Below, one piece after another: positions 2,709 through 42,047 of a stretch of DNA of 64,000 nt (positions are counted from its first letter, which is position 1; each line of letters opens with the position of its first letter). Position numbers and translations under genes: made by a program. Below the pieces are notes generated by a model. That model saw nothing but the letters and a program-made list of their open reading frames with translations, searched no databases and was not told the DNA's origin. Source of the stretch: Naegleria gruberi (lineage: Eukaryota); NCBI GenBank assembly GCA_000004985.1, contig GG738852.1; one strand, 5' to 3'.

Positions 2709-3965
2709 ATGAAAAGAAAACTTGAAAAGAAACAAGTGCTTGTGGGAAAGAAGATCAAAATGAAGAGCATTGAATTATTCCCTGATGATATTTGTTATGA
2801 AATATTAAAATATTTAAATTTTCAACAAGTGCTACTGAACGCATGTAAAATTTCAAAGCAATTTTACAGAATTTCCACCACAAGATATGAATTTACAATC
2901 AAATCGGAAGAAACTGCTGATGATTGGTTCAAATACAAAAGTATTTGGACTAAATTTGTTAAATATTGTGAAAAACACCATTGCCCCTATTTGAAGAATG
3001 TTAGAACATTGATAATTATTGACGTGTTGTTGGTTTTAGATGATGATGAATGGGAAATTGTTTGTGCAATGAAGGAATTGAGAGAATTGAGATTGGAAAT
3101 TTTTATTAAAACTTTGGAAAACAAGCAAATTCAAATGTTGGCTAAACATTTAACAAAACTGGAAAAGATTATATTAGGTGGTAATGTTAGTGATGAAAAT
3201 GTTCAACAATTTCAATTATTTCCAAATTTAACAAGTTTGAAAATACCACAGGGTCATATTACTAATTTGAAAAATATAGCCAAATTAGAAAAATTGACTG
3301 AATTGGATATTGGAGAATGTTGTGATATTGTGTTGGACGATGGTCTCAGTCCTCTGGCTTTAATGAAAAATCTGACAAGTTTGTCTCTTTCAAAAATTGT
3401 ATTCGCACCTGAAGAGTACAAGCCCATCACACAATTACCTCGCCTTGTCTCTTTGGATGTGTCCTCTTCAGATAATACTGTTGAATCAATCAAGATATTG
3501 ACAAGCTCACTAAAGCAGTTAACAATATTTAACATTAGCAACAATTTTCTGATTGGGGATGAAGCTGCTCGATTAATTGGAGAATCACTGAAACAATTAA
3601 CATTTTTAAACATCAGCAATACCAATTTACAACCACAAGGAGTTAAATATATTTGTGAATTGACAGAGTTGAGACATCTTGAAATGGGAGAAAATCAGAT
3701 TTTCGATCAGGAGGTGGTTTTCATTTGCAAATCAAAATTTTCATCCAAATTGACAAACTTGGATTTGAAAAATACTAGAATTTCAAAAGAATGTCTCAAA
3801 TCACTATCTACACTCGACAATCTTCAATATCTTAATTTGATGTTTACAGAAATAGACAAATCCAACATTACATTTCCATTCAAGAAATTGAGATTCCTCA
3901 CACTTAAGGAAAATAACCTAGATGGAGATGAATTGGAAGAATTGACCAATTTCAATCAACAATAA
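2709..3965 (+). CDS. F-box / leucine-rich-repeat protein
   Basis: ATG in A-rich context. The N-terminus LFPDDICYEILKYLNFQQVLLNACKISKQFYRI is an F-box. Repeated LxxLxxLxLxxN/C units follow (LTSLKIPQGHITNL, LTELDIGECCDI, LTSLSLSKI, LTFLNISNTNL, LRHLEMGENQI). Confidence 0.6.
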   Translation: MKRKLEKKQVLVGKKIKMKSIELFPDDICYEILKYLNFQQVLLNACKISKQFYRISTTRYEFTIKSEETADDWFKYKSIWTKFVKYCEKHHCPYLKNVRTLIIIDVLLVLDDDEWEIVCAMKELRELRLEIFIKTLENKQIQMLAKHLTKLEKIILGGNVSDENVQQFQLFPNLTSLKIPQGHITNLKNIAKLEKLTELDIGECCDIVLDDGLSPLALMKNLTSLSLSKIVFAPEEYKPITQLPRLVSLDVSSSDNTVESIKILTSSLKQLTIFNISNNFLIGDEAARLIGESLKQLTFLNISNTNLQPQGVKYICELTELRHLEMGENQIFDQEVVFICKSKFSSKLTNLDLKNTRISKECLKSLSTLDNLQYLNLMFTEIDKSNITFPFKKLRFLTLKENNLDGDELEELTNFNQQ

Positions 3966-4991: not shown

Positions 4992-6800
4992 TTACTCAAT
5001 TGTACATGGAAGATTATTAATCTCGAAAACTCTCTTCATAATATCAAAGTGATATTGGATATTTGGATGTATATCATGAAAATACAAACCCTTATCAATG
5101 ATCATATGGATAAGGTTTTTGTCTTGTTTTAACCTTTCGCTGGCATATCTTATTGATCTTGGATTGTTCAACACTGCCTTGTATACAATTTCTCTATCAT
5201 CCCTTAATTCTGGATTCAAATACTCAAGCCATTCTCCCTGCTTACTCACCAATTCTAGTGCCAATAATCTTGGAATTCCATGTAAAGATTTTGCAGGAAA
5301 GTAAGTAGCGTCATCGATTGAAATTATCCTCAAAAGCTGGCCACATTTTAACATTTCATCTGAAACAAATACAATACTATATGGATCTATCTTAACAAGT
5401 TCTTTCATGAATTCCATATCGTTCCATAAATTTGGATCTATCATTTGTTGGAGTTTGTCATTGAGGATTAGTAATGGTTTTTTCTTTTTGAATAGTTCCT
5501 TAATAAGTTCTCTGTCCGATCTGTACTTTGCAGGTATTTCTTTGAAATGAATCAAGTATTGAAGAGCTGATTCTCTAGTGTCAACCTTTTCCAGATTTCT
5601 CTTTATAAATCCTTTGTAATTTTCAATGAATTCTTTAATTTCTTCTGCAGGATTGACTACTTGTTTACAGATGCTGTCAGCGAGAGATCCATTTCCAAAC
5701 AAATCTTTCACAATTCTTTTAAAGTACTTATTGGTAAATTGCTTATTTTCCAACAAATCCTTATCCGACATTGATAATGGAGCTTTGAGTCCCAATGAGA
5801 GAATCACATCTGGATCCCTGCTACAATAGCAACTATAAGAAAAACCGGGCTCAATTTTGAGAGCCTTAATCATGAATTCCTTATCCTTTAACAGTTCCTT
5901 TCCAACAAATTGCAAAATATATTGTGGATGATTACCCATGCCTGTTTCTATTAATCCATAATCTTGACCAGATTTAATGGCAGCCATGGCAATCTTTGGA
6001 TCATTCTTGAGATTATCAGTTGCATGTGCAATAGAATATGGATTTGAATTGACAGCTTGCATGACAATTTCTGGATCTGATTTAAAAGTATCGCTTGCAA
6101 ATTTCAAAGCAGCACCATTTAACTTTACAGCCTTTGAGACAATTGACTTGTCATTCTTGAATTTCTCTTCAACAAATTGCAAAGCGAGTGGATTACTTTT
6201 GACAGCCATTAATACTACTGCCTTTTTGTTTCTCAATTTTTCACTAGCAAATTTGATACATTCTCCTTGTTTTCTAATGGCCTTTAACATGAGTTCTTTA
6301 TCATCTTTAATCAAAGGTATCACCTTTGACCAGTCATGATCATGAATATGTGAATTCAAGTCTAATAATTTGTTAATGACATCTCTGTCATGTAGCAATT
6401 CTTCTGGAAGATGATCGAGAACCAATCTGTTCAATTTCATAATCACCTCCTTATCCTTCCTAAATTCCTCTGGCAAATGATCAATTTGAATAAATTCCGA
6501 TTTTGAATCGAGTAATTTCATAATAAAATCTCTATCCTTAGTGGTGGATAACCTTTCTCTGAAATCCAACAATCCAATCCTATACAATTCCCTCAGGCAT
6601 TCAATCTTGTTATTGGTGAATAAATAATTTTCGAGAGTTTTTTCCCTTTTATTACTTGTTGTGTTGAGAAATTGTGATGATGAGAAATTTCTAGTCATTG
6701 TAAATATTGACGATGATGATTTGAGAGTTTGAATGAATCCCGAAGATGGTGATGAACCCTGTAAGGAGAACAATCTAACCTTGTTAACAAGTTGTTTCAT
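4992..6800 (-). CDS. DUF4116-like repeat protein, possibly mitochondrial
   Basis: 602-aa ORF from an ATG. The N-terminus is S/T/R-rich and presequence-like. The body holds tandem ~37-aa repeats (D+E[IV]V[LM].AV+.N..AL.FAS..LKND+.I) typical of DUF4116, plus HLPEE.....D+.VI.KL repeats. Confidence 0.45.
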   Translation of the reverse strand: MKQLVNKVRLFSLQGSSPSSGFIQTLKSSSSIFTMTRNFSSSQFLNTTSNKREKTLENYLFTNNKIECLRELYRIGLLDFRERLSTTKDRDFIMKLLDSKSEFIQIDHLPEEFRKDKEVIMKLNRLVLDHLPEELLHDRDVINKLLDLNSHIHDHDWSKVIPLIKDDKELMLKAIRKQGECIKFASEKLRNKKAVVLMAVKSNPLALQFVEEKFKNDKSIVSKAVKLNGAALKFASDTFKSDPEIVMQAVNSNPYSIAHATDNLKNDPKIAMAAIKSGQDYGLIETGMGNHPQYILQFVGKELLKDKEFMIKALKIEPGFSYSCYCSRDPDVILSLGLKAPLSMSDKDLLENKQFTNKYFKRIVKDLFGNGSLADSICKQVVNPAEEIKEFIENYKGFIKRNLEKVDTRESALQYLIHFKEIPAKYRSDRELIKELFKKKKPLLILNDKLQQMIDPNLWNDMEFMKELVKIDPYSIVFVSDEMLKCGQLLRIISIDDATYFPAKSLHGIPRLLALELVSKQGEWLEYLNPELRDDREIVYKAVLNNPRSIRYASERLKQDKNLIHMIIDKGLYFHDIHPNIQYHFDIMKRVFEINNLPCTIE

Positions 6801-9575: not shown

Positions 9576-12500
9576 TTATTGATCTGGTTGTACATAATGC
9601 AAACTTGCAATAATGACACTTACGTTGTCACCACTATTTCTATTGAAAATAGAATGATTTACCAAGTTTTTGGCAATGATATTGAAATCTTTAACTCGAT
9701 GATGATAGTATTGTTTGTAAATATAATCAGCAACATCACTGTTGTTCATTACATCAAACAAACCATCACTAGCTATGACGATTAAGGTTGGTAAACTTGG
9801 AGTAACACTTGAAAACATTACATCCTTTCCATCTTTGTCATCCTTACGTTTTTCAACTACCTTTTTAGGTTTTTCCAAGTGAATCTTGTGCTTTACAACC
9901 TCAGGGAGAGCAACAACTGCTTGCTTTCTTAAATTAGTATTTTGAATTGGTTGAGTGAGACCAACATTGATTGCACCATTGGTACTTGTTGGATCTGGAT
10001 TATTCTTTGCATAATAATCTCCAAATGTTCTAGAAACAGCCAATCCACAAACACGATTATTTTCAACACGAGATCCAAACATTTCAATTCTTCTCTTTTC
10101 TTGTTCATAGGTTGGTTTATGATCACTGGAGAGAGGAATAATCTTTGACAAGTGAATCATAAAAGCACGACTATCACCAACGTTTGCGCAAGTTACATAG
10201 TATGTATTGGCTTCCTCCTCACTAGCAGTGATAAACACAGTGCAGCCTGTTGAACCAGCACATGCCATAATACCACTAGTTGTTCTTGGAGAAGGAACAC
10301 CCTTTTTAACAGAGAGATTGGTTCTATATTGGTCTATAACCTTTTCACGATATTGTTCATCAACCTTAATGAATGCATACTCAAGAAGATCTCTTCTGGA
10401 GAATATTGGCTCATGGATATTAAATACCAATGATTGATAATTTTCCAAGTGATAGATAAAGTTTTGATACAAATAGTCAGCACATTCAGCACCACCATGT
10501 CCATCAAATACACAAAGTACTGCAGCTTTTTGATTGTGGAAATTTTCAAATGACTTATTTACAAAATAAACACGATCTTCCATATAGTTTCTCTTTCCTC
10601 TTTCTTGAGCACAGCTGATAGCAAGTGGGAGTTGCTTCTTTTCAAAATCGAATATGGATTGTGATGGAGATTCTGTTGGATTTGCTGTGGTATTGTTATT
10701 GTTACCTGGAGTACTTCCTGGAGGAGGCATTGTATTTGGGGAAATGCCATGAGTCTTTTTCTTTGGTGTTACTTGAAGTGGGTCACGCCAAATAAAAGGA
10801 ATTACACTTGTAGAGGCATTTGATTCAGAATCTGATTGGGATTGTTGGACAGAGGTGACATGGTGATTAAGGAATTTAAAGATGGATTGTTCAGCTTGTC
10901 TATAATAGTCCATTTGGGATGGATGTTTGAGAAGATTGAGATCTTTGCAAAGGTCATTACATTGATGTTTGGAGAAGAATCTCTTCACTTCTGTATACTC
11001 GGAAAAGTTGTTGCTGTCGTTAGATTTTTTAGATTGAGGAGAACTTGGCTCGGTCAACTCGGTTGGTGATTTGATAGATTTCTTAGCTGAGGCACCTCCA
11101 CCATTATCAAATATTCTACAATCGAATTTTCCGAAAAGATAACTGCCATAACAGAACATTTCGTTTGCTTCAAAAACAAATGTTCCTTTAGATTCTAAAA
11201 AGATAAAATGGAAAAGAGATTCAGCAACAAAATTACTGGTATGTCTTGGAGGTAGGCAAGCCATCTTTTCACCATGTTTTTCATCAGTAGGATCGAGATA
11301 TGGATATTCTACAAAAGGATAGGCAATTAAGGTTACTTCTTCAACATCAGGGGATGGTGTTACAATACTTGGATTAGATACAGCACCAGTCTTTGGATCA
11401 TAATGTAATCTATATACATTGTAGAAAAGAGAAAAATTCTTTTGTACCTTAGAGTTATAAAGTTGTAAGTAATAGTTCAAATGTGTCAAAACATTGACTG
11501 GATCGTATTTTTGATGACGAGTGTTGATTCTTGTACCATGGAAAGTAAGTCCATTCATTGAAAGATCTTTGATAAAAACTGAATTAGGGAAGGAAGATGT
11601 CTTGGACGGTGTACCTGGTTGTTTTGTTTTAGAATCAGTACTCTTTTCAGTATTCTTACTCTTATCTCTATAATAGAGAACAATATCATGATAAAGTAAT
11701 GAGTTTGCATTTGAAGGATTGGTCATTCCTGAGCTACTGTTATTGGAAATGTAAGTCATTACTTCTGAAACATTGTACTTGTAAATGTAATGTGGGTCAT
11801 TACTAGTATTTTTCCAAAATGTATTATTCTTATTGGCTTCTGCTAATGAGGATGCAATTCCGCTATCTCTACTCTTACTTCTAGATAATCCAGATGGGAT
11901 GGAAGTGGAACTGGCCAATGTATTAATATTACTTCCACTGTTAGAGTGTGAAAGTGTTGGATTACTTGTGGAATGTGAAAGTGGTGTTCCATTTTGAATT
12001 TGTAAAGCACTTGGTAAATATCCAATTTGTTGAAGTGGACTTCCTTCATAGCAAGGAAAACATACAGCTTTGGATTTGTATTCTAAAAATCCTGAAGAGC
12101 TTGATGTTGAAGAAATGTTGTGAAGACTCATGGATGGTGAAATTGAAGGGATACTACTATCACTCTCAGAACCTCCATTTGATTCGCTTGTAATGGTTGA
12201 CAAATTACTATTTTCACTGGTGGATCGACTGATACGTTGCTCATCTTTAGCTTTTTTCTCTTGGTGAGCCATACATAAATGGTTTGTTAAAACACTAGGA
12301 ACATTTGAAAAGTTTGTAAAGGTAAATGCCAAATGTTTAGATTGATTATGTTGTTGAGAATTGCTTGGAGGTACTAGAGGGCTTGCATCAATTGTAGAAA
12401 TATTTGGAGTGGAGGTACTATTCGGAAGTGTCCCACTCGAAGAGGTTGGAATCAAAGGAGTTGAAGTACTTTTCACAATTGCAAATTGTGTAATATTATT

Positions 12501-12986
12501 TCCAGAAGTTGATGGAGGAAGGCTACTATTAACTTGATTTGATCCCGAATTTGTATTTGGGAAGGGTGATTGTGAGGAAGATGTAGTTGTTGGAGAAGCA
12601 GAAGAAATTGTCAATGATACTGGTTGATCCATCTTTAAACTACCTCTATTATTTGGAGTGGAAATAGTTCCCATAGAGGTTGTTGCAGTACCTCCAAAGC
12701 TTTTAGTTCTCGAGTGAAATATTGGCATTTTGTGCATAATCGTCTTGACCAAACCTTCAGATGATTGATTGGAACCTATTCCTTGACCTAATTGTATTGG
12801 AGGAGCTGTTGAGTTTGAAGAAGAAGAAGAAGGCGAAACAGATCCTTGGTTATTTCCCTTGTTCAAAATGATTGATGCCGTGCCTGACTTTAAAGAAGAA
12901 GTAATATTATTCATGTTTGGTGGAGGTGGCATTTTGAATTCTGAATTGTTATTTGATGATGTATTATTATTATTATTGTTACTCAT
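9576..12986 (-). CDS. Protein phosphatase 2C (PPM family) with a long low-complexity N-terminal region
   Basis: 1136-aa ORF from an ATG (MSNNNNNNTSSNNNSEF...). The N-terminal half is S/T/N/P-rich low complexity. The C-terminal ~330 aa carry PP2C motifs (ERGKRNYMEDRVYF, CVFDGHGGAECADY, GSTGCTVFIT, NVGDSRAF, IASDGLFDVM). Confidence 0.8.
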   Translation of the reverse strand: MSNNNNNNTSSNNNSEFKMPPPPNMNNITSSLKSGTASIILNKGNNQGSVSPSSSSSNSTAPPIQLGQGIGSNQSSEGLVKTIMHKMPIFHSRTKSFGGTATTSMGTISTPNNRGSLKMDQPVSLTISSASPTTTSSSQSPFPNTNSGSNQVNSSLPPSTSGNNITQFAIVKSTSTPLIPTSSSGTLPNSTSTPNISTIDASPLVPPSNSQQHNQSKHLAFTFTNFSNVPSVLTNHLCMAHQEKKAKDEQRISRSTSENSNLSTITSESNGGSESDSSIPSISPSMSLHNISSTSSSSGFLEYKSKAVCFPCYEGSPLQQIGYLPSALQIQNGTPLSHSTSNPTLSHSNSGSNINTLASSTSIPSGLSRSKSRDSGIASSLAEANKNNTFWKNTSNDPHYIYKYNVSEVMTYISNNSSSGMTNPSNANSLLYHDIVLYYRDKSKNTEKSTDSKTKQPGTPSKTSSFPNSVFIKDLSMNGLTFHGTRINTRHQKYDPVNVLTHLNYYLQLYNSKVQKNFSLFYNVYRLHYDPKTGAVSNPSIVTPSPDVEEVTLIAYPFVEYPYLDPTDEKHGEKMACLPPRHTSNFVAESLFHFIFLESKGTFVFEANEMFCYGSYLFGKFDCRIFDNGGGASAKKSIKSPTELTEPSSPQSKKSNDSNNFSEYTEVKRFFSKHQCNDLCKDLNLLKHPSQMDYYRQAEQSIFKFLNHHVTSVQQSQSDSESNASTSVIPFIWRDPLQVTPKKKTHGISPNTMPPPGSTPGNNNNTTANPTESPSQSIFDFEKKQLPLAISCAQERGKRNYMEDRVYFVNKSFENFHNQKAAVLCVFDGHGGAECADYLYQNFIYHLENYQSLVFNIHEPIFSRRDLLEYAFIKVDEQYREKVIDQYRTNLSVKKGVPSPRTTSGIMACAGSTGCTVFITASEEEANTYYVTCANVGDSRAFMIHLSKIIPLSSDHKPTYEQEKRRIEMFGSRVENNRVCGLAVSRTFGDYYAKNNPDPTSTNGAINVGLTQPIQNTNLRKQAVVALPEVVKHKIHLEKPKKVVEKRKDDKDGKDVMFSSVTPSLPTLIVIASDGLFDVMNNSDVADYIYKQYYHHRVKDFNIIAKNLVNHSIFNRNSGDNVSVIIASLHYVQPDQ

Positions 12987-13649: not shown

Positions 13650-14310
13650 ATGAAACCAAAGGATGAAATTAAGGCTGTTTTTGTTGGTAAGTTAATTTCC
13701 TGATCATGCTCTTGTGGCTAAAGGGAGGTTGATATTAGGTGATACTGTGAGTGGTAAAACATCACTCTTAATTGCATTGATGGGAGGAGTCATTTCCGAT
13801 AGCTATGTTACACCATTATTGGATCCTTTCGATTCTGTGGTTAACAATTTCACCCTTAGAGGCATGGGGGAAGGAAATGGATTACCAAAAGAAAACCTGC
13901 ATGTTAAATATATTGATACGAGAGGATCAGTAGATTATGATCCAATTAGATATCTCATCTATCCAGAGACCAATCTATTTGTTATTTGCTGCAGTCTTGC
14001 CAATGATGAGCCACTAAAAAGTGTTATAACTAGGTGGCTTCCTGTTATTAAAGACAAGTACAAAATGATTCCATTTGCCTCATTCTTGGTTGTTGGTACA
14101 AAGTCTGAAACCACATCCATTCCTAAAGGTTCTTTTATTACATCAGCAAACTCAATGTTCAAGAATGTTCCAGGATATGCAGGTGCAGTAGAAGTTTCAG
14201 CCATGGACCAAACGGGAATTAAAGAACTCCAACAAAAAATTATTGTTGTTGGAGCTGAAAATTTGAGAAAAAAGAATAAGGACTCGGAGGGATGTTGTAC
14301 AATTCAATAA
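13650..14310 (+). CDS. Atypical Rho/Rac-family small GTPase with CAAX box, 2 exons: join(13650..13686,13739..14310), ~202 aa
   Basis: Exon 1 runs from the ATG (AAAAAAATGAAACC) and encodes MKPKDEIKAVFVG. A 52-nt intron (GTAAGT...ATTAG) follows, then exon 2. The spliced P-loop KAVFVGGDTVSGKTSLLIAL aligns with Rho KCVVVGDGAVGKTCLLISY. DTRGSVDYDPIRYLIYPETNLFVICCSL aligns with Rho [28 protein letters not shown], but the catalytic Gln is replaced by Ser. VGTKSE is the NKxD-like motif. The C-terminus ends CCTIQ, a CAAX box. The ORF-track start at 13714 is a GTG. Confidence 0.65.
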
Positions 14311-14360: not shown

Positions 14361-16739
14361 TCACTCCTCTATCCTATTCATTATGTTTCTGATTCTTTCA
14401 AAGTGATGCTGCTTTCTAAGCTTTAGAATATCAATAGTTTCACCCTTTTCATTCTTGTTATTGTCCTTAATTTCCATATTGAGTAGTTCCCTTTCATTTT
14501 TCAAATAATCTTCAATGGCAGCAATGACCTCTTCATAGCTTAACATTTTTTCATTATGTAATTTTCTCTTTCCAAAGGCGTGAAACGTAAGGAACTGAGC
14601 AAATTTTTTGGTGTCAATCTCTGAAAGCATAAAAGATGTGGCAATTAATGATGACCTGTCATTTGATTTGGTATGGATTGTAAATGGTCTATATTGATTT
14701 TCGATAGGATTATCCAATATATCTTCGCCTGTTCCATTCAATATTTCCATTGAATCTCCATTGGTAGGTAAGGAAGGCTCGACGGTACCTGTTGGTGGTG
14801 CTACTTGGAGAATACTGGAGGTTGTTTCTTCCTTTTTAGAGGATTTGACTTGTTCAAGCATACATTTGACTATCCTTTCAACTTGTTGTTCCTGATCCAA
14901 ACGATTTCCAATAGATTGCCCATGCTTGTAGACATATTGTAATTGCTGTTCTACAGTTTCAATAAATATTCCATCTGGTTCATTTCGAGTTTGGAGAGGC
15001 ATTTCAGTAAATTCGCTAGAAGATCCATGCCAATGAACGATAGGAGTTTCCAGAGATCTGATGTTGATTCCAGAATATTGATTGGAAAAGAACCTTCTTC
15101 GATGATCTTTGGAAGGCTCTGCCCTATCATATTGACTTGTCACAGTTCCATACTTGGAGGAATACTTGTTAATGGCTGTTTCTCTCTCTTTAAAATAGTA
15201 ATACTCATTATTTCCAATAATGGGTGTCTTCAAATAAGAGTTTCCTTTTCCACTGTAGCTTCTTGTTAAAATGCATTGATTTTGTTGGGAGGCATCAACC
15301 TCAATAGCATCCAATGGAATGTCATCATTTACCTCCTCGTAATTGATCTGTGGTCTCCTTCTTCTTGTTTTTGTGGAGGAGGCTTCATCTGTTGAGGAGG
15401 AGGATGAAGAGCGTGTAGATTTCCTCTTCTTGCTTGATTTACCTGTTCCTCTTTCGCTGTTATAATTGCTAATGATTTCAGATCGTTTGAGTTTTTTCAG
15501 TTTAACCTTCTTTGTATCTGCATCTTTGTGTATTGGAATTGTTGGTTGGTTTGAGAGTCTCACTAATCTGAATTTATAGACATAGGCACCGTTCTTTCCA
15601 TTGGGGAGAATTTGGCGTTCTTTCCAATAGTTGGTAACCCAATACAGTCCATCATATCTATATCCGCTTATTGGTGCATACTTTTCCTGCAATTGAAATC
15701 CTCTAACAACTCTTACTGGAGTTTTAGAGGTCATATTGATTGTTAAACTTTTGTTCACACTGTTAAGTGTTTGATCAGATGTTTCTGACCCACCCTGTCC
15801 TGTATAAATCATAATGTCTCCCATATCCTCATCACCATATCCACCCATAGAGGATGCAACAATTGATTCGGCAGCCTCTCCATTGTTACCATTTCCGAAA
15901 ATACCACACTGTGGTGGACGATGGGTCTTTGACTTGGAACATTGAATACGTTTTTCATATGTAGTGAAAACAGGTTCGACATGTCCATAAAGTTTTCCTG
16001 AATCATCTGGACTTTCATTGATATGAGTCCATTTAGTAGCATCTCCAATTGATTTCTTGTCTAGATCTGTAATATAATTTGCTCTCTTGTTTTTTTCGTC
16101 TTCATCAAGATCTGAATAGTTTACATCTTCTTCCTCCTCTTCTTCATCATCTTCCTGTTCTTCCATTGGAGTTGTGACTTGTGACTCTTCACTTGGTTCG
16201 AAAGAGAAGGTTACAGTTTTTGCAATTGGGCTAAAATGTGAATCACTTGTTTGATGAGAATTGGTTGACGAAATTGGAGAGAGGGGAGGAACTACCACTT
16301 CAACAGTTTGAGTACTAGGTTTTGAATCTCGAATAATTAATGGCCTTTCTAATGTAAGTGGTTTTTGAGGTGTCGTAGATTGCTTATTCTTCCTTCTGAC
16401 AGATCTTGTCCTTTTAGGTGGCTCATTAAAAGCCTCCTCAAGTGTTAAAAATTCATCCAGATCGTTCTCATCAGTTGGAATAAACCCTGTTGACGGATTC
16501 TGCTGAGCAGTCATGTTGAAAAGTGTTAAATTCGAAATTCCACTATTCTGAGGGGGAAGATCCTCTTCCGACAAATCACTCAAAGTAGTGGGAGATTCAA
16601 AAGAGTTATTCATTGATTTTCCAATATCCATAAAATGTGACGATGAGTCTTCATCATCGGGAAAGGGTGATTGATCACCTACGTCAATATAAATCGGCTG
16701 ATTTTCCAATTTTTCAAATAATGTTCTTTGTATCCGCAT
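14361..16739 (-). CDS. SRA (SET-and-RING-associated, YDG) domain protein
   Basis: 792 aa from an ATG. The central region GIFGNGNNGEAAESIVASSMGGYGDEDMGDIMIYTGQGG...PVRVVRGFQL...GYRYDGLYWVTNYWKERQILPNGKNGAYVYKFRLVRL has the SRA/YDG signature (YDGxY, VRVxRG, YTGxGG). It is flanked by an acidic N-terminus, basic NLS-like stretches (KKVKLKKLKRSE, KSSKKRKSTR, TRRRRPQ) and an unassigned C-terminal domain. Confidence 0.6.
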   Translation of the reverse strand: MRIQRTLFEKLENQPIYIDVGDQSPFPDDEDSSSHFMDIGKSMNNSFESPTTLSDLSEEDLPPQNSGISNLTLFNMTAQQNPSTGFIPTDENDLDEFLTLEEAFNEPPKRTRSVRRKNKQSTTPQKPLTLERPLIIRDSKPSTQTVEVVVPPLSPISSTNSHQTSDSHFSPIAKTVTFSFEPSEESQVTTPMEEQEDDEEEEEEDVNYSDLDEDEKNKRANYITDLDKKSIGDATKWTHINESPDDSGKLYGHVEPVFTTYEKRIQCSKSKTHRPPQCGIFGNGNNGEAAESIVASSMGGYGDEDMGDIMIYTGQGGSETSDQTLNSVNKSLTINMTSKTPVRVVRGFQLQEKYAPISGYRYDGLYWVTNYWKERQILPNGKNGAYVYKFRLVRLSNQPTIPIHKDADTKKVKLKKLKRSEIISNYNSERGTGKSSKKRKSTRSSSSSSTDEASSTKTRRRRPQINYEEVNDDIPLDAIEVDASQQNQCILTRSYSGKGNSYLKTPIIGNNEYYYFKERETAINKYSSKYGTVTSQYDRAEPSKDHRRRFFSNQYSGINIRSLETPIVHWHGSSSEFTEMPLQTRNEPDGIFIETVEQQLQYVYKHGQSIGNRLDQEQQVERIVKCMLEQVKSSKKEETTSSILQVAPPTGTVEPSLPTNGDSMEILNGTGEDILDNPIENQYRPFTIHTKSNDRSSLIATSFMLSEIDTKKFAQFLTFHAFGKRKLHNEKMLSYEEVIAAIEDYLKNERELLNMEIKDNNKNEKGETIDILKLRKQHHFERIRNIMNRIEE

Positions 16740-17004: not shown

Positions 17005-18453
17005 ATGCCATTGTTTGAATTCCACGATTTGCGTCAATTGCAAAAGGATGATGATGTAAGAACAGAATCCTCTCGAGAGCAAGCCAGTACTGAAGGAACC
17101 TTGAACAAATTCTATAATCCATACATTCAGAAACAAGCATTATTCTTTGATTCATTGGTTTTATTTATTGAAGAACATACAAAATTTGCTAAAAAAGGTC
17201 TCCGAACCCTTCCATCATATTTTGATTCATTGGATGCTAGTAGACCATGGTTTTGCTTTTGGTGTTGCAATGCATTGAGCATGCTCCCTAACTTGGGAAG
17301 TGATAATGTATTGTATCCTTCTCAATTGGATCTAATCAAGAGAGATGATCCAACACTTGTATCGGATTTTAGTAATTTTCTTGGAAATTTCTGTCAAGAC
17401 AAGGAAAAGGGTGGAATTGCAGGAGGTCCAGGACAATTATCACACGTTGCACCTACATTTTCTGGTACTATTGCATTGTGTGCTTTGAAAGCAAACCAAG
17501 GATTGGATTTAATTGACAAGCAAAAAATGTATTCTTTTTTATATAGTTTGAAAGATCCTGTCTCTAAAGGATTTAGAATGCATGTGGATGGTGAAGTTGA
17601 TACAAGAGGATGTTTTTGTGCATTAATTGTTGCTACTGTTTTGAATATTATGGATGATAAATTGACAGAAGGTGTAGCAGAATATATTGTCAATTGTCAA
17701 ACTTATGAAGGAGGTATTGGAGCTTATCCAGGAGTTGAAGCACACGGTGGATACACTTATTGTGGATTGGCAGCTATGATGTTCATGAAGAAAGCTCACC
17801 TTCTCGATTTAGATTCATTAACACACTGGCTTGCCAGAAGACAAATGTCATATGAAGGAGGATTCCAAGGAAGAACAAACAAGCTGGTAGATGCTTGTTA
17901 TTCGTTTTGGGTTGGTGCCTCTTTCCCTCTCTTAGAAGCTGCTTTAGTTTCCCTTAAGGATCCAAAAGACAGAACTGAATTAGATCAACAAATTCTCGAT
18001 TATCTTCAATGGCAACCTCCAACTTTGGACTCGGAAACCAGAATCAAATATACACCAAAGACATTCAGTTTGAAGGACACTTTGAAAAAAATCAAAACCC
18101 ACCACAATTCTGAGGAGTATTGCCAAATTGAGGAAATGGAGGCAACAGAACCATATTTGGATTTGCAAGATTCAGAATGGATGTTCAATCAAACAGCCTT
18201 ACAGGAATATCTTCTCTTGTGTTGCCAACAAGAGTCAGGAGGTCTTCGTGACAAACCAGTCAAACAACCAGACTTTTATCACACTTGTTACGCCTTGTTT
18301 GGTTTATCAATTTCTCAACACAATCCAAGTGGTTCTCTGGCTGTTTTGGGCGATTGCAAAAATCTTCTCAGACAAATCAATCCTCTCTTCCAAATGTGTA
18401 CAGATAGTGTTTCAAATGTTTTGAATTATTATGGAGGTAGAACGAGTGTGTAA
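17005..18453 (+). CDS. fntB: Protein farnesyltransferase beta subunit
   Basis: 482 aa from an ATG. Collinear strong matches to FNTB: LDASRPWFCFWCCNAL, GGPGQLSHVAPTFSG, MHVDGEVDTRGCFCALIVA, CQTYEGGIGAYPGVEAHGGYTYCGLAAMM, RQMSYEGGFQGRTNKLVDACYSFW, ALQEYLLLCCQQESGGLRDKPVKQPDFYHTCYALFGLSI. Confidence 0.85.
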   Translation: MPLFEFHDLRQLQKDDDVRTESSREQASTEGTLNKFYNPYIQKQALFFDSLVLFIEEHTKFAKKGLRTLPSYFDSLDASRPWFCFWCCNALSMLPNLGSDNVLYPSQLDLIKRDDPTLVSDFSNFLGNFCQDKEKGGIAGGPGQLSHVAPTFSGTIALCALKANQGLDLIDKQKMYSFLYSLKDPVSKGFRMHVDGEVDTRGCFCALIVATVLNIMDDKLTEGVAEYIVNCQTYEGGIGAYPGVEAHGGYTYCGLAAMMFMKKAHLLDLDSLTHWLARRQMSYEGGFQGRTNKLVDACYSFWVGASFPLLEAALVSLKDPKDRTELDQQILDYLQWQPPTLDSETRIKYTPKTFSLKDTLKKIKTHHNSEEYCQIEEMEATEPYLDLQDSEWMFNQTALQEYLLLCCQQESGGLRDKPVKQPDFYHTCYALFGLSISQHNPSGSLAVLGDCKNLLRQINPLFQMCTDSVSNVLNYYGGRTSV

Positions 18454-18575: not shown

Positions 18576-19343
18576 ATGATGAATAGTAGCTTTAGCACAA
18601 CCAGCAACCCTGCAATGGAAGAGGTTGAAAAAATGTTTCAGGAAGTAATCGAAATTCACGATCGGGTTGCTCAAAAAACAAACCAATTCGAACAAAACTT
18701 TAAAGGTTTCATTAATAGTCAAATTAACGACAATAATAAGAAAAGACACGATTTTGAACAAAATTGTCAAAATTTTCAATCAGAATTTCAATCACTCACT
18801 ACCCGTGTAGAGAGAGGAATTAATGAAAGACAACATGTGGAAGAAATTAGAAAAAGATACTGTGAGGATGAAGGTGAGCTGGATCAAAGAATAACCGATA
18901 TGAAAGTCAGAGCCGACGAACAACCTAAAATTATTGAAGAATCCAAGCAAAAATTGCTACAACTCAAATCAGAACATGAAGAAAAATCCAACATGCTCAA
19001 TAGAGTTGAATCGGATTTTGTTGACCATGCCACAAAGAAATTTATTGAAAAAGAAAAGTATAGAACTCTTCTTGGAATGACATTCGAAGCAAGACAAGAT
19101 GGTGACATTGCTTACCTTTTAATTTCCTTCTCCATTCAAAATATGCAAGCTTTAGGGTTGACCAGTTGTCAAATTGCTTTGAGAATTGATGGAGGACTAT
19201 ATTCTGTAGCAGGATGTCAACCAGCAATTCAATATGATGATTTAATTGCTTCACTCAATGACAATAAGAACTTTGGATCGTTCATTATCTTGGTCAGAAA
19301 TCGTTTCAAGAACCTTATCAACCAACACAAACCAAGAAAATAG
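18576..19343 (+). CDS. spc25: Kinetochore protein Spc25-like (NDC80 complex)
   Basis: 255 aa from an ATG. An N-terminal coiled-coil region is followed by a C-terminal RWD-like domain. YLLISFSIQNMQALGLTSCQIALRIDGGLYSV...DNKNFGSFIILVRNRF is collinear with human SPC25 [23 protein letters not shown]...TNNFSAFLANVRKAF. Confidence 0.5.
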   Translation: MMNSSFSTTSNPAMEEVEKMFQEVIEIHDRVAQKTNQFEQNFKGFINSQINDNNKKRHDFEQNCQNFQSEFQSLTTRVERGINERQHVEEIRKRYCEDEGELDQRITDMKVRADEQPKIIEESKQKLLQLKSEHEEKSNMLNRVESDFVDHATKKFIEKEKYRTLLGMTFEARQDGDIAYLLISFSIQNMQALGLTSCQIALRIDGGLYSVAGCQPAIQYDDLIASLNDNKNFGSFIILVRNRFKNLINQHKPRK

Positions 19344-22957: not shown

Positions 22958-24232
22958 TTATTGTGAGATGAATGACTTGTTAATAACCTTAACCTTATCG
23001 ACTGGAACTAATCTGTAAACTGGATTTGGTAATAAAGCTTCAACAATCTTCTTTTCATCAATGAGTTCCTTAACACTGACGTTAATTCTATCAGCAGAGA
23101 AAGAGTTAATTGGCAAACCTTCAATAACACCGTATTGACCAGCACCGAAACATTGCACTGGCATAGAACTCCAAATACCTCTTGGAATACCATATTGACC
23201 TTTGCTTGGAATGGCCATAGAAACCCATTCACTGTTACCCAAAACCCAATCACGCATGTGTTTAACAGCAGCATCAGCGGCAGAAGCAGCAGATGACTTT
23301 CCTCTAGCACCAATAATAGCAGCACCTCTTTGTTGAACCTTTGGAATGAAATCTTCGGTTATCCACTTTTCGTCATTGATCAAGTTCATGGCCCATTGTC
23401 CGTTGACAGTGGTGAATGAAAGATCTGGGTATTGAGTAGCAGAGTGGTTACCCCAAATAGCAAATCGTGAAATATCGGAAACGGTACATCCAAGCTTATT
23501 AGAAATTTGTGCCAAGGCTCTATCATGGTCAAGTCTAGTCAAGGCAGTAATATTTTCTTGTGGAATATCAGGAGCATTGAGAGATGTGATCATGGCATTA
23601 GTGTTGGCTGGGTTAGCAACAATCAAGACCAAAACATCACCATTAGCATTAGAGTTCAAAGCTTCACCTTGCTTCTTGAAGATGGCAGCATTATCCTTCA
23701 TAACATCAGCTCTTTCCATACCTGGACCTCTTGGCTTACCTCCGAGCAAAACAGCATAGTCTGTACCTCTGAAAGCTTCAGATTCACTATCGGTAATGAA
23801 AATTTCTTCAAGGAGTGGGAAAGCACCATCTTCCAATTCCATTTTAACACCTTCCAAAGCCTTCATGGATTGTGGGACGTCCAACAATCTCAATCTGACT
23901 GGTTGATTTTCACCCAACATTTCACCAGTGGCAACTCTGAACAACAAGCTATAGGCAATTTGACCAGCAGCACCTGAAACGGTAACTGTAACTGGAGGAG
24001 CAAGTTGATCGACATCCTTGGTCATGACTCTTGGGCCTTCTCTGGCACTCTTGTTGATCCACTTACCAACAGTCTTGATATCCTTTACATCAACACCAGC
24101 AAAGTCAGCCTTGGTTTGCTTACCGAGCAACATACGTTCAAGAGGTGTCTTGGTGAGGGACATTTCTTGGTCCATTTGAGCACCACGTTGCTTCAAAGTG
24201 CTATAATTACGACCTAAAATGTTGTTTTTCAT
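22958..24232 (-). CDS. mdh: NAD-dependent malate dehydrogenase, cytosolic type, with ~85-aa N-terminal extension
   Basis: Collinear match to MDH1: VTVSGAAGQIAYSLLF, IVANPANTNA, LTRLDHDRALAQ, AIWGNHSATQYPD, QQRGAAIIGARGKSSAASAA. The first ATG is one codon inside the TTG track start. Confidence 0.85.
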   Translation of the reverse strand: MKNNILGRNYSTLKQRGAQMDQEMSLTKTPLERMLLGKQTKADFAGVDVKDIKTVGKWINKSAREGPRVMTKDVDQLAPPVTVTVSGAAGQIAYSLLFRVATGEMLGENQPVRLRLLDVPQSMKALEGVKMELEDGAFPLLEEIFITDSESEAFRGTDYAVLLGGKPRGPGMERADVMKDNAAIFKKQGEALNSNANGDVLVLIVANPANTNAMITSLNAPDIPQENITALTRLDHDRALAQISNKLGCTVSDISRFAIWGNHSATQYPDLSFTTVNGQWAMNLINDEKWITEDFIPKVQQRGAAIIGARGKSSAASAADAAVKHMRDWVLGNSEWVSMAIPSKGQYGIPRGIWSSMPVQCFGAGQYGVIEGLPINSFSADRINVSVKELIDEKKIVEALLPNPVYRLVPVDKVKVINKSFISQ

Positions 24233-24467
24233 CAAATAAAATTATATGTGTTCAATATATTCAACATCAAATAATTATCATCATTAATTTTTATAATTTT
24301 TAAAAGTCGGTTCGTTAAAAACATCAATTATTCAATTATTGGTAAAAATTAGAAAGTGTAAATCAAATTAATAATAATAAATAGATATCGTACGTGTTGT
24401 CTTGGACAATTGTTGAGTAAGTCTCTTCATTTGTTTCGATATTTTTTTTAGGAATTTACAATATTTA

Positions 24468-25600: not shown

Positions 25601-27028
25601 TTATAATTTATAATGTTCCATAATTGGAACAGCAATATAGTTAATTAAGGTATTGAGTAAAGACCATGGTAATCTTCTATAAAATGGTAAGTGTTTGATA
25701 TAAATTGAGGAATACTCAACTGCAGGTGAGCAACCTCTATTCATTTTGAATATTGAGGCACCAGATGATTGATTGAAAAACACATTGAAATGAATGGCAT
25801 CTTGTAATAGAATGCTTGATAACATTCTGTAAAGGGGAGCTGAGACAGATGTATTATATCCCAATACTGGACATGTCATTACTCTTGTATTGTTGAATGT
25901 TTTGATGAAATATCCAATCACTCCATCAATTTCATCTCTCTCATTATTCAGAATGCATTTGTAGTTGATAATATTATTTTTCAAGGTTTCATAAACAAAC
26001 AATTTTGAGAATTGAATGTTACACTCTGAGTATTTTCCAATATATAACATGTTATAGACATTTACCATTTGTTCAATATATTTGTGATTCATATCATTAA
26101 TTTTCTCTCTCAATTCATTATTTCCAATAATAGTATATGAGTTTTTATACTTGTTGAGAAGTTTCTTATCATCCTTAACATCCCTCTTTTTTAATGTGCT
26201 TTGAATAGTGTCTTTATCGAGTGTATTGAGTGTGTAAATCATTCTGGAAGGGATTGGACAATATCCTATTTTAGATAGAGTATTCAAAATTGGGGAGTAA
26301 ATTTTATCATTCAAAGATCTCATCATGACTGAATGCTGTGGAAATTTGGATGTTAAAAATTTGGTCAACTCTGAATATAATTCATTATCTTCAATTTGGT
26401 TTAAAGATTCTAATGTATAATTGGTATTCATTAATTTTAATTGACTATCTATATTGCCTGAATTGTATAATATGCTTTGAGTTCCATTATTTAGGAAATC
26501 ATCCTGGTTCATAGTGGATCCAGAATTTTCCAATAAATTGTTTTTAATATTATACAAGTTATTGTATAAATTGGTCGAAAGCATTAAATTACCAATAATT
26601 AGAGTCTTGTCTAATTTTGTCCAAATGAAAAAGTAGCTAAATAAATCAATAATTAAATTCGTAAATTGTACAATCCACTTGTTAATATTATTAATTTCCA
26701 ATTCTACTCTTCCATATGAAATATAGTGATGATAGGGCGATAATGTAAATATATTATAATTTCCATTGTGTTTAACATTTCCTGTATTGATAGTAATCGG
26801 AACATAACCAATGGTAACATTCTTACTGTCCACTTGTTTTGAAATTCGAATAAATTGCATTTGTGATGATTCAACATCAATATTAGAAATTAATTGATTC
26901 AATGGATATTTAGAGTACAATTCAAAGAAATCTAAAATCCTATCAGCAGCACCCTTCATCACTACGAGTTGAGCAATTTGATTCAACGGAATTAACAATA
27001 TCAAAGTGGAACATTTTTTTTGGACCAT
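25601..27028 (-). CDS. Hypothetical protein (475 aa), possible acyltransferase-like fold
   Basis: Long ATG ORF, N/I/Y-rich, with no signature I can assign. The C-terminal part (GYNTSVSAPLYRMLSSILLQDAIHFNVFFNQSSGASIFKMNRG) is vaguely GNAT/FemAB-like. Confidence 0.35.
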   Translation of the reverse strand: MVQKKCSTLILLIPLNQIAQLVVMKGAADRILDFFELYSKYPLNQLISNIDVESSQMQFIRISKQVDSKNVTIGYVPITINTGNVKHNGNYNIFTLSPYHHYISYGRVELEINNINKWIVQFTNLIIDLFSYFFIWTKLDKTLIIGNLMLSTNLYNNLYNIKNNLLENSGSTMNQDDFLNNGTQSILYNSGNIDSQLKLMNTNYTLESLNQIEDNELYSELTKFLTSKFPQHSVMMRSLNDKIYSPILNTLSKIGYCPIPSRMIYTLNTLDKDTIQSTLKKRDVKDDKKLLNKYKNSYTIIGNNELREKINDMNHKYIEQMVNVYNMLYIGKYSECNIQFSKLFVYETLKNNIINYKCILNNERDEIDGVIGYFIKTFNNTRVMTCPVLGYNTSVSAPLYRMLSSILLQDAIHFNVFFNQSSGASIFKMNRGCSPAVEYSSIYIKHLPFYRRLPWSLLNTLINYIAVPIMEHYKL

Positions 27029-33593: not shown

Positions 33594-33725
33594 CTTTTTC
33601 TCATTTCATTAATTAATTTATTCTCAATTAACTACGTATTTATATTATCAAAACAGAATCTTTGCTTTGAAAAAATGTAATAATTTTTGGCGGGAAACAA
33701 GTCATTTAAAATTAGCCTTAAAAAA

Positions 33726-41979: not shown

Positions 41980-42047
41980 ACTAATTGTGAGAAACTAACT
42001 GTACATATTATATACATCTCGTGAGATTAATAAAACTATTTATATAT

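What the first reader, a model, noticed from the sequence alone, without database searches (positions are those of the whole stretch)
14361..16739. SRA/YDG (methyl-cytosine-reader type) domain protein in a dictyostelid-like genome
A clear SRA signature (YTGQGG...VRVVRG...YRYDGLYWV...YVYKFRLVRL) is present. SRA domains normally partner with SET or RING/PHD modules and read hemi-methylated CpG. Here it sits alone, between acidic and NLS-rich regions plus an unassigned ~350-aa C-terminal domain. Dictyostelids have at most trace DNA methylation (Dnmt2 only).
Basis: partly seen in the sequence, partly recalled or inferred. Interest (0 to 1): 0.5.

Follow-up and report, generated by a model that had tools for sequence, protein, structure and literature searches.

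The report
Naegleria SRA-only methylcytosine reader gene
The stretch is a real, intact gene for a protein with a methyl-cytosine-binding SRA domain, but it belongs to the amoeboflagellate Naegleria gruberi (which does methylate its DNA), not to a slime mould, and it is already listed in the literature as that organism's "UHRF1-like" protein, so the supposed paradox disappears.

Summary
Window 14361..16739 (-) is one uninterrupted 792-aa ORF with a strong SAD/SRA domain (Pfam PF02182, E 1.4e-33, aa 256-398) and no other recognisable domain.

The protein is 100% identical to Naegleria gruberi XP_002680882 (NAEGRDRAFT_46701), so the genome is heterolobosean, not dictyostelid. Published work shows that N. 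gruberi has 5mC in all CX contexts on repeats and heterochromatin. It also has DNMT1-type enzymes, Tet-like enzymes, CDCA7 and HELLS. An SRA reader there is expected. The same accession sits in the UHRF1 column of the Funabiki et al. survey table, whose text credits N. gruberi with a "UHRF1-like protein".

The 5mC pocket and thumb are intact: Y301, D303/E304, Y312, T313 and Gln277, which aligns with SUVH5 Gln392 and TagI Gln35. The NKR finger is missing; that loop is 10 aa shorter than in UHRF1. This predicts a thumb-only reader that does not depend on context or hemi-methylation, in line with the non-CG methylome.

The C-terminal ~320 aa are conserved only in Naegleria and Willaertia. They have no detectable relative in Pfam, in PDB, or in a profile search of 1.84 billion proteins. 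Both structure predictions failed (pLDDT about 35).

Verdict: a known, catalogued but uncharacterised gene, of low to moderate interest.

The parts
14361..16739 (-). Complete intronless CDS (792 aa plus stop) of N. gruberi XP_002680882 / NAEGRDRAFT_46701, an SRA-only 'UHRF1-like' protein
   Evidence: ORF list. 100% identity to the N. gruberi predicted protein. The orthologue from a metagenome contig (P0003) and a paralogue (P0006) also start with MRI.
16110..16739 (-). aa 1-210: acidic, S/T/P-rich, poorly conserved N-terminal region, probably disordered
   Evidence: 42 D+E against 16 K+R. Only 13-26% identity to homologues. No secondary structure in the AF2 model, which is of low confidence.
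15990..16109 (-). aa 211-250: short pre-SRA block (consensus R-S-x-I-T-E-x-D-K-x-x-G-D-A-x-x-W) shared by all full-length heterolobosean family members
   Evidence: Alignment A1.
15546..15974 (-). aa 256-398: SAD/SRA (YDG) domain
   Evidence: Pfam PF02182, E 1.4e-33. PDB hits SUVH5, TagI and UHRF1. 79-83% identical among Naegleria orthologues.
15909..15911 (-). Gln277, the thumb-loop residue aligned with SUVH5 Gln392 and TagI Gln35 (UHRF1 Val446). It is predicted to fill the gap left by the flipped base.
   Evidence: Alignments. Roles of the equivalent residues are taken from PMC4740795 and PMC6212794.
15801..15839 (-). aa 301-313 (YGDEDMGDIMIYT): walls of the flipped-base pocket. Tyr301 and Tyr312 stack on the base, Asp303/Glu304 supply the carboxylate for the Watson-Crick edge, and Thr313 follows.
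   Evidence: These align with SUVH5 Y416/D418/Y428/T429, UHRF1 Y466/D468-D469/Y478/T479 and TagI Y55/D58/Y67. Y301, D303 and Y312 are invariant in 8 heterolobosean homologues.
15774..15794 (-). aa 316-322 (GGSETSD): vestigial 'finger' loop. It is 10 aa shorter than the UHRF1 NKR finger, 8 shorter than SUVH5 and 6 shorter than TagI.
   Evidence: Alignment A3.
15324..15539 (-). aa 401-472: basic, Ser-rich linker with NLS-like clusters (KKVKLKKLKR, KSSKKRKSTR, KTRRRRP)
   Evidence: Sequence and composition. Poorly conserved in sequence, but basic in the orthologues.
15120..15323 (-). aa 473-540: conserved block C1 (C-I-L-x-R...GKGNSxLKxP...YYYFxERExAI...YGxVTSQYDR), specific to the orthologue group
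   Evidence: 52-54% identity among Naegleria orthologues and 24% to Willaertia.
14865..15029 (-). aa 571-625: conserved block C2 (HWHGSSSEFxExPLxxRNEPDGxFxExxExQLxYVYKxG), specific to the orthologue group and rich in invariant polar residues
   Evidence: 55-69% identity among Naegleria orthologues. Invariant H, W, H, SSSE, E, P, N, D, G, E.
14364..14708 (-). aa 678-792: C-terminal, mostly helical module (LIxTSxMLSEI ... YLxxERE ... RKxxHFxRIRxIxxKL) shared with the heterolobosean paralogue group
   Evidence: hhalign of the orthologue C-terminal profile against the paralogue C-terminal profile gives probability 96% and E 4.7e-9 over 98 columns. Helices are predicted in both AF2 runs, at low confidence.

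Best explanation
This is the Naegleria gruberi gene NAEGRDRAFT_46701 (XP_002680882). It encodes a probably nuclear protein whose only recognisable domain is an SRA domain.

Proposed mechanism. The SRA domain binds duplex DNA and flips a 5-methylcytosine out of the helix. The flipped base sits in a pocket walled by Tyr301 and Tyr312 and is hydrogen-bonded by the Asp303/Glu304 carboxylate. [quoted passage not shown] The finger loop is almost deleted, so there is no NKR finger. That would suit the N. gruberi methylome, which is methylated in all CX contexts with weak strand symmetry.

Inferred role of the other regions. The basic linker would target the protein to the nucleus. The lineage-specific C-terminal region (blocks C1 and C2, plus a helical C-terminal module shared with paralogues) would be the effector or interaction part. 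It would tie methylated repeats and heterochromatin to downstream factors such as DNMT1-type methyltransferase, CDCA7-HELLS or H3K9/H3K27 silencing machinery. This would be functionally analogous to the SRA-only Uhrf1 of Cryptococcus or to catalytically inert plant SUVH adaptors.

What is shown and what is inferred. Shown: gene identity, domain identity, conservation of pocket and thumb residues, loss of the finger, and lineage restriction of the C-terminus. Inferred: actual 5mC binding, context independence, nuclear localisation and the identity of partners.
For: - Intact ORF.
- SRA HMM match at E 1.4e-33 with full profile coverage.
- 100% identity to the N. gruberi protein.
- Pocket and thumb residues align with experimentally defined residues of SUVH5, UHRF1 and TagI. 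They are invariant or nearly so in 8 heterolobosean homologues.
- The SRA domain is 79-83% identical between Naegleria species, while the flanks diverge to about 20%. This indicates strong purifying selection on the reader domain.
- The finger loop is 10 aa shorter than in UHRF1.
- The literature links finger engagement to hemi-status selectivity, and thumb-only binding to recognition of both statuses (PMC4740795).
- N. gruberi has 5mC in all dinucleotide contexts with low symmetry (r = 0.25). It lies on repeats and silent genes marked by H3K9me3 and H3K27me3, and the species has two DNMT1 enzymes (PMC12344493).
- Funabiki et al. list this accession in the UHRF1 column for N. gruberi, next to CDCA7, HELLS and an orphan DNMT, and describe a 'UHRF1-like protein' in the text.
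- There is a precedent for an SRA-only Uhrf1-like protein that binds methylated DNA and promotes maintenance: C. neoformans CNAG_00677 (bioRxiv 10.1101/149385).
- The C-terminal blocks are conserved across Naegleria and Willaertia, and the last ~110 aa are shared with paralogues.
Against: - There is no experimental or structural evidence for this protein. Both AlphaFold runs were unusable (pLDDT 36 and 35), so pocket geometry was judged from sequence alignment only.
- The Tyr-to-Tyr wall segment is one residue shorter than in SUVH5, UHRF1 and TagI. It is unclear whether Asp303 or Glu304 is the functional carboxylate, and the pocket specificity (5mC, 5hmC or other) cannot be fixed.
- The C-terminal region has no detectable homologue of known function, so the effector role is pure inference.
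- 5mC is sparse in N. gruberi (0.28%). The fungal SRA-only Uhrf1 knockout alone had almost no effect on 5mC, so the biological weight of such a reader may be small.
- The SRA domain does not nest within the UHRF1 clade in a rough NJ tree, so orthology to UHRF1 is not established.
Confidence: 0.7

Rival explanations
1. The SRA domain reads an oxidised or otherwise modified pyrimidine rather than 5mC. Candidates are 5hmC, 5fC/5caC, or 5hmU made by the Naegleria Tet-like enzymes. The protein would then belong to a Tet-linked turnover or repair pathway rather than to silencing.
For: - N. gruberi encodes Tet-like dioxygenases that are active on 5mC in vitro and possibly on thymine.
- SUVH5, the best PDB match, binds 5hmC and 5mC equally. 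UHRF2 and TagI prefer 5hmC.
- Subtle loop-length changes in the Tyr-Tyr wall shift specificity in known SRA domains, and this protein has a unique one-residue deletion there.
Against: - No 5hmC was detected in N. gruberi hypermethylated regions by Nanopore.
- In UHRF2 it is an insertion, meaning a larger pocket, that favours 5hmC. Here the segment is shorter, which if anything argues for a tighter pocket.
- The carboxylate that selects cytosine over thymine is kept.
Confidence: 0.12
2. It is a domesticated, bacterial-type modification-dependent nuclease. An SRA module of SRA-HNH restriction-enzyme ancestry would be fused to a novel catalytic C-terminal domain that cuts or nicks methylated (for example viral or transposon) DNA.
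For: - The strongest non-heterolobosean sequence matches are bacterial SRA or SRA-HNH 'putative restriction endonucleases' (up to 105 bits and 47% identity). The best eukaryotic hits reach at most 73 bits.
- Gln277 and the GYRYDGLY motif match TagI.
- Block C2 has a cluster of invariant His/Ser/Glu/Asn/Asp residues that could be catalytic.
Against: - Profile-profile comparison of the C-terminal region with the HNH domains of the bacterial relatives shows no relationship (probability 0.1%).
- There are no Pfam, NCBIfam, PADLOC or PDB nuclease hits.
- In the NJ tree the heterolobosean SRA domains form their own clade and are not nested in bacterial sequences. A HET+BAC grouping had 0% bootstrap support. 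Mean identity to bacterial versus eukaryotic SRA domains differs only slightly, 43.5% against 40.1%.
- The C2 motif is not conserved in the paralogues P0006, P0007 and P0008.
Confidence: 0.05
3. The SRA fold is retained but no longer reads modified bases. It would serve as a generic DNA- or chromatin-binding or scaffold module, as suspected for some divergent SRA-only proteins.
For: - SRA-only proteins of unknown function exist in rust fungi and parasitoid wasps.
- N. gruberi methylation is very sparse.
- No structural model was obtained.
Against: - All base-flipping and pocket residues are conserved. Y301, D303 and Y312 are invariant, and Gln277 is kept in all but the most divergent homologue, P0008, which has the UHRF1-type Val. 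This holds across Naegleria, Willaertia and the paralogues, despite about 20% identity elsewhere. A pattern like that is hard to explain without selection for base recognition.
Confidence: 0.1

Closest known systems
Arabidopsis SUVH5 SRA domain (PDB 3Q0B and related entries)
   Same: Best solved-structure match (E 1.4e-18). It shares the thumb glutamine (Q392 = Q277), the stacking tyrosines (Y416/Y428 = Y301/Y312), the carboxylate (D418 = D303), the TGQGG motif, and reliance on the thumb rather than the finger.
   Different: The Naegleria protein has no pre-SET/SET methyltransferase module. Its finger loop is 8 aa shorter still, and its Tyr-Tyr wall segment is one residue shorter. Its C-terminal region is unrelated.
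UHRF1 (animal and plant VIM/ORTH E3 ligases)
   Same: It has an SRA domain with the same pocket residues. The organism also has the partners that co-occur with UHRF1 (a DNMT1-type enzyme, CDCA7, HELLS). The accession is in the UHRF1 column of Funabiki et al., whose text calls it a 'UHRF1-like protein'.
   Different: It has no UBL, tandem Tudor, PHD or RING domain. The NKR finger and the 21-aa UHRF1 insertion are absent, and the thumb residue is Gln, not Val. Its SRA domain does not cluster with the UHRF1 clade.
Cryptococcus neoformans Uhrf1-like protein CNAG_00677 (SRA-only)
   Same: It has an SRA domain without Tudor or RING. It acts as a methyl-DNA reader that supports maintenance methylation in parallel with H3K9me. 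This is the best functional analogy for a stand-alone SRA reader in a microbial eukaryote.
   Different: The fungal protein selectively binds hemimethylated CG and works with DNMT5. Naegleria has DNMT1-type enzymes and non-CG methylation. No sequence comparison with CNAG_00677 was made here.
Bacterial SRA-HNH modification-dependent endonucleases (TagI, ScoA3IV, TbiR51I)
   Same: Highest raw sequence similarity of the SRA domain (42-47% identity). It shares the thumb Gln (TagI Q35), the GYRYDGLY motif and a short finger.
   Different: There is no HNH domain, and the C-terminal region is unrelated to HNH. It is a eukaryotic nuclear-type protein with NLS-like linkers, and it forms a separate clade.

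Membership tests
SAD/SRA (YDG) domain superfamily, Pfam PF02182 | Significant match to the SRA profile over its full length | tested here: met
   E 1.4e-33, 116 bits against a gathering cut-off of 30.7, profile positions 9-148 of 148.
SAD/SRA (YDG) domain superfamily, Pfam PF02182 | Flipped-base pocket: two stacking aromatic residues plus a carboxylate that contacts the Watson-Crick edge | tested here: met
   Y301, Y312 and D303/E304 align with SUVH5 Y416/Y428/D418, UHRF1 Y466/Y478/D469 and TagI Y55/Y67/D58. Judged by sequence alignment only, without a 3D model.
SAD/SRA (YDG) domain superfamily, Pfam PF02182 | Thumb (base-flipping promotion) loop with a residue that replaces the flipped base | tested here: met
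   HRPPQCGI aligns with SUVH5 HRPSQSGI (Q392) and TagI HAHLQAGI (Q35).
SAD/SRA (YDG) domain superfamily, Pfam PF02182 | Preferential binding of 5mC-containing DNA | not testable with these tools
   This needs EMSA or ITC with recombinant protein.
UHRF1/UHRF2 (ICBP90/Np95) family | Multi-domain architecture UBL - tandem Tudor - PHD - SRA - RING | tested here: not met
   Only SRA is detected by Pfam at E <= 1. Funabiki et al. have a separate class for UHRF1 entries that keep the SRA domain but lack the RING. Whether they place this entry in that class could not be checked, because the held text carries no colour coding.
UHRF1/UHRF2 (ICBP90/Np95) family | NKR finger loop that reads the CpG and hemi-methylated state from the major groove | tested here: not met
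   The loop between GQGG and DQ is 10 residues shorter than in UHRF1, and no N-K-R motif is present.
UHRF1/UHRF2 (ICBP90/Np95) family | SRA domain groups phylogenetically with UHRF1 SRA domains | tested here: not met
   In the NJ tree with 200 bootstraps the UHRF1 clade (92%) excludes the heterolobosean sequences, which form their own clade (58%). Deep nodes are unresolved. This is a rough, distance-based test.
SUVH (Su(var)3-9 homologue) H3K9 methyltransferases | SRA followed by pre-SET, SET and post-SET domains | tested here: not met
   No PF05033 or PF00856 match. The plant SUVH clade (100% bootstrap) excludes it.
Bacterial SRA-HNH modification-dependent restriction endonucleases | C-terminal HNH (beta-beta-alpha-Me) nuclease domain | tested here: not met
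   No PF13391 match. hhalign of the C-terminal profile against the HNH profile gives probability 0.1%. No PADLOC or NCBIfam hit.
Heterolobosean SRA family (defined here: Naegleria and Willaertia proteins P0001-P0008) | Pre-SRA motif, finger-less SRA with thumb Gln or Val, basic linker, and a C-terminal helical module ending RKxxxFxRxRxxxxKL | tested here: met
   Alignment A1. C-terminal module shared between orthologue and paralogue groups (hhalign 96%, E 4.7e-9). The C-terminal profile finds only Naegleria and Willaertia proteins among 1.84 billion representatives.

The most novel reading that the evidence does not exclude
The Naegleria and Willaertia proteins would represent a third, independent eukaryotic lineage of SRA readers beside UHRF and SUVH. 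It would combine a finger-less, thumb-only SRA with an orphan effector region (blocks C1 and C2, with an invariant H-W-H-G-S-S-S-E...N-E-P-D-G signature). This adaptor would let a DNMT1-type enzyme perpetuate context-independent (CX) methylation on heterochromatin in a deep-branching eukaryote, without ubiquitin signalling. The C-terminal region might also carry a new enzymatic or histone-binding activity.
Probability: 0.15. Interest if true: 0.6.

Novelty: already known. Interest (0 to 1): 0.27.

Why it matters
As first framed, a methyl-cytosine reader in an organism that lacks DNA methylation, the finding would have been a real puzzle. That framing rests on a wrong guess about the organism. 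In Naegleria gruberi an SRA reader is expected, and this one is already catalogued.

A narrower interest remains. Naegleria is one of the few discobans with a 5mC system. Its DNMT1-type enzymes somehow sustain non-CG, weakly symmetric methylation, and this SRA-only protein is the only UHRF1-like candidate listed for the species. It has a nearly deleted finger loop and an orphan C-terminal region. Characterising it could show how 5mC was read and propagated before the UHRF1 RING/ubiquitin pathway, or independently of it.

Tried and rejected
1. AlphaFold2 of the full-length protein with the 8-sequence heterolobosean alignment gave mean pLDDT 36.2. AlphaFold2 of the C-terminal 323 aa with a 5-sequence alignment gave pLDDT 35.2. 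Both are unusable, so no fold search was attempted and the pocket could not be modelled in 3D.

2. Remote homology of the C-terminal region:
- The word-indexed search found only N. fowleri.
- An exhaustive hmmsearch of the C-terminal profile against 1.84 billion representatives found only the four Naegleria and Willaertia orthologues.
- A Pfam scan of all five members at E <= 10 gave only inconsistent single-member noise.
- A PDB profile search at E <= 10 gave nothing.
- A weak full-length hit to TIPIN (E 0.022) was not reproduced with the profile and was dismissed.

3. The hypothesis that the C-terminus is a degenerate HNH nuclease was rejected by hhalign.

4. The hypothesis of recent bacterial horizontal transfer of the SRA domain is not supported. 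Bacterial hits score higher, but the NJ tree does not nest the heterolobosean clade within bacteria, and the identity difference is marginal. The tree is crude (distance-based, 156 columns) and leaves deep nodes unresolved.

5. Looking up the N. gruberi contig by exact protein gave no record. The N. lovaniensis orthologue locus shows no conserved synteny.

6. A search for the protein's accessions in paper main texts gave none. The accession appears only in a supplementary table.

7. The third homologue search, with the SRA domain alone, returned only 29 candidates because of the word index. It did not give a broad eukaryotic sample.
Full report

Yes. The window carries one uninterrupted ORF of 792 codons at exactly 14361..16739 on the minus strand.

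- Pfam's SAD_SRA model (PF02182) matches residues 256-398. The E-value is 1.4e-33 and the score 116 bits against a curated cut-off of 30.7, covering essentially the whole profile. No other Pfam family matches even at E <= 1.
- Against solved structures, the best sequence matches are the SRA domains of Arabidopsis SUVH5 (1.4e-18), the bacterial SRA-HNH endonuclease TagI (3.2e-17) and UHRF1/UHRF2 (about 4e-15).
- The regional composition is as described. The N-terminal 210 aa are acidic and poorly conserved. After the SRA domain comes a basic, serine-rich linker with NLS-like clusters.

**2. Whose gene is it?**

It is not a dictyostelid gene. The protein is 100% identical over its full length to the Naegleria gruberi 'predicted protein' XP_002680882.1 / EFC48138.1 / D2V4P2_NAEGR / NAEGRDRAFT_46701, which lies on a 939-kb scaffold.

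- Orthologues occur in N. lovaniensis (47% identity), N. fowleri, an environmental Naegleria-like contig, and Willaertia magna (32%).
- A second, paralogous group exists in N. lovaniensis and in metagenomes (P0006, P0007). A more divergent member is P0008.
- The neighbouring genes are ordinary housekeeping genes: PP2C, a Ras-like GTPase, a prenyltransferase beta subunit and Spc25. None is a DNMT or Tet gene.

**3. The 'paradox' dissolves.**

N. gruberi is different.

- EM-seq, WGBS and Nanopore data show low but real 5mC, 0.28% genome-wide.
- There are 447 hypermethylated regions. They are enriched on repeats, young transposons and silent genes, and they coincide with H3K9me3 and H3K27me3.
- Methylation occurs equally in all four CX dinucleotide contexts, with weak CpG symmetry (r = 0.25).
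- The species has two DNMT1 enzymes and the well-known Tet-like dioxygenases. No 5hmC was detected (PMC12344493; also PMC12695648).
- Funabiki and colleagues' survey of 180 eukaryotes lists exactly this accession, XP_002680882, in the UHRF1 column for N. gruberi. The same row holds CDCA7 (XP_002678720), HELLS (XP_002674368), an orphan DNMT (XP_002682263) and DNMT2. Their text says N. gruberi encodes 'a UHRF1-like protein'. They mark entries that have SRA but no RING as a separate class.

The gene is therefore already catalogued, although nobody has characterised it. No paper's main text names its accessions.

**4. Anatomy of the SRA domain.**

I aligned the domain with SUVH5, TagI and UHRF1. 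Residue roles are taken from the structural papers (PMC4740795; PMC6212794).

| Feature | This protein | SUVH5 | UHRF1 | TagI |
|---|---|---|---|---|
| Stacking tyrosines | Tyr301, Tyr312 | Y416, Y428 | Y466, Y478 | Y55, Y67 |
| Carboxylate at the Watson-Crick edge | Asp303 / Glu304 | D418 | D469 | D58 |
| Residue after the second Tyr | Thr313 | T429 | T479 | not assigned |
| Thumb residue replacing the flipped base | Gln277 | Gln392 | Val446 | Gln35 |

- Y301, D303 and Y312 are invariant in all eight heterolobosean homologues. Gln277 is also kept, except in P0008, which has the UHRF1-type Val.
- The finger is different. Between GQGG and DQ there are only four residues (SETS). That is 10 fewer than in UHRF1, 8 fewer than in SUVH5 and 6 fewer than in TagI. 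There is no NKR motif, and the 21-aa UHRF1 insertion is absent.
- The wall segment between the two tyrosines is one residue shorter than in all three reference structures. I therefore cannot say from sequence which of D303 and E304 is the functional carboxylate.
- Published comparisons link finger engagement to hemi-status selectivity (UHRF1, SUVH4). They link thumb-only binding to recognition of both statuses (SUVH5, UHRF2).
- My inference is that the Naegleria SRA is a thumb-only reader, insensitive to context and to methylation status. This would fit the CX, weakly symmetric methylome, but it is an inference and not a result.
- Within Naegleria the SRA domain is 79-83% identical, while the flanking regions fall to about 20-30%. 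That argues for purifying selection on base recognition.

**5. The rest of the protein.**

C-terminal to the linker, three blocks are conserved in Naegleria and Willaertia.

- C1 covers aa 473-540: CILxR...GKGNSxLKxP...YYYFxERExAI...YGxVTSQYDR.
- C2 covers aa 571-625: HWHGSSSEFxExPLxxRNEPDGxFxE...YVYKxG. It has many invariant polar residues.
- C3 is a helical C-terminal module covering aa ~678-792.
- Only C3 is shared with the paralogue group (hhalign probability 96%, E 4.7e-9).

Nothing else in sequence space resembles this region.

- A profile of it searched against 1.84 billion representative proteins returned only the four orthologues.
- Pfam at E <= 10 and a PDB profile search gave nothing consistent.
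- NCBIfam and PADLOC gave nothing for the whole protein.
I ran no fold search and built no 3D pocket model.

**6. Evolutionary placement.**

- The highest-scoring SRA relatives outside Heterolobosea are bacterial SRA or SRA-HNH proteins, at up to 105 bits and 47% identity. The best eukaryotic hits reach at most 73 bits.
- That raised the idea of a domesticated restriction-type module. I tested it in two ways.
- First, the C-terminal profile has no relationship to the HNH domains of those bacterial proteins (hhalign probability 0.1%).
- Second, I built an NJ tree of 40 SRA domains with 200 bootstraps. The heterolobosean sequences form their own clade (58%). That clade sits outside the UHRF1 clade (92%) and the plant SUVH clade (100%), and it is not nested among bacterial sequences. 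A heterolobosean-plus-bacterial grouping had 0% bootstrap support.
- Mean identity to bacterial SRA domains is 43.5%, against 40.1% for eukaryotic ones.
- The tree is crude and its deep nodes are unresolved. I conclude only that neither UHRF1 orthology nor bacterial origin is demonstrated.

**7. Most likely function, and rivals.**

- Best explanation (about 0.7): a nuclear, base-flipping 5mC reader of the SUVH5/TagI thumb-Gln type. It lacks a finger, and its lineage-specific C-terminal region recruits or organises downstream factors at methylated heterochromatin. The closest functional analogue is the SRA-only Uhrf1 of Cryptococcus neoformans. That protein binds methylated DNA and supports maintenance methylation in parallel with H3K9me.
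- Rival: a reader of Tet products (about 0.12).
- Rival: an SRA fold that no longer reads modified bases (about 0.1).
- Rival: a methyl-directed nuclease (about 0.05).
- Each rival's evidence and refutation test are given in the structured fields.

**8. Verdict.**

The domain call, the solitary architecture and the unassigned C-terminus are right. The organism, and therefore the claimed oddity, are wrong.
- The gene is annotated, and its accession is already listed in the UHRF1 column for N. gruberi, so I rate it 'already known'.
- The residual interest is moderate to low. It concerns how a finger-less, RING-less SRA protein with an orphan C-terminal region works alongside DNMT1-type enzymes in a deep-branching eukaryote with non-CG methylation.

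Noticed in passing
window 40171-41979 (+), repeats at 40724-40911 and 41202-41790: A 602-aa ORF made largely of imperfect Gln/Gly/Pro-rich tandem repeats, with periods of 18, 39 and 78 nt, and of 30-48 and 117 nt. GC is locally elevated (0.42) and AT skew is strong (0.265). Several long overlapping ORFs in other frames and on the other strand (41069-41998, 41162-41932, 41170-41946) are probably by-products of the repeat. No Pfam hit.
   Followed up: partly
L001 (N. lovaniensis PYSW02000036.1), gene at 10001-12622: The N. lovaniensis orthologue (P0002) has entirely different neighbours (PQ-loop protein, UCH deubiquitinase, Sec61-beta, TFIIIC subunit), so there is no conserved synteny with the N. 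gruberi locus. Its gene span (2622 nt for 854 aa) implies a short intron, whereas the N. gruberi gene is intronless.
   Followed up: partly
P0005 (Willaertia magna) in alignments A1 and A2 and in the NJ tree: The Willaertia protein's SRA domain groups with the paralogue clade P0006/P0007 (63% bootstrap). Its C-terminal region, however, clearly matches the orthologue-type profile (E 4e-79). This may reflect poor tree resolution, or a duplication that happened after Naegleria and Willaertia split. It is unresolved.
   Followed up: no
window 1-64000: The general gene content is typical of a gene-dense protist chromosome:
- F-box/LRR protein, 2709-3965 (+)
- DUF4116 repeat protein, 4992-6800 (-)
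- PP2C, 9576-12986 (-)
- Ras-like GTPase, 13714-14310 (+)
- prenyltransferase beta subunit, 17005-18453 (+)
- Spc25, 18576-19343 (+)
- malate/lactate dehydrogenase, 22958-24235 (-)
- Vps4-like AAA ATPase, 33687-35777 (+)
- MCM helicase subunit, 45913-47991 (+)
- two protein kinases, 42273-44441 (-) and 60926-63913 (-)

No tRNA genes were found. Several long ORFs (25601-27028, 28252-30165, 37353-39062, 55038-56588, 56987-59920) have no Pfam match.
   Followed up: partly
window 14865-15029 (-), aa 571-625 of the SRA protein: Block C2 carries a striking invariant polar signature, H-W-H-G-S-S-S-E-F-x-E-x-P...N-E-P-D-G...E, in Naegleria and Willaertia orthologues but not in the paralogues. It looks like a possible metal-binding or catalytic motif, but it matches no known family.
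   Followed up: partly
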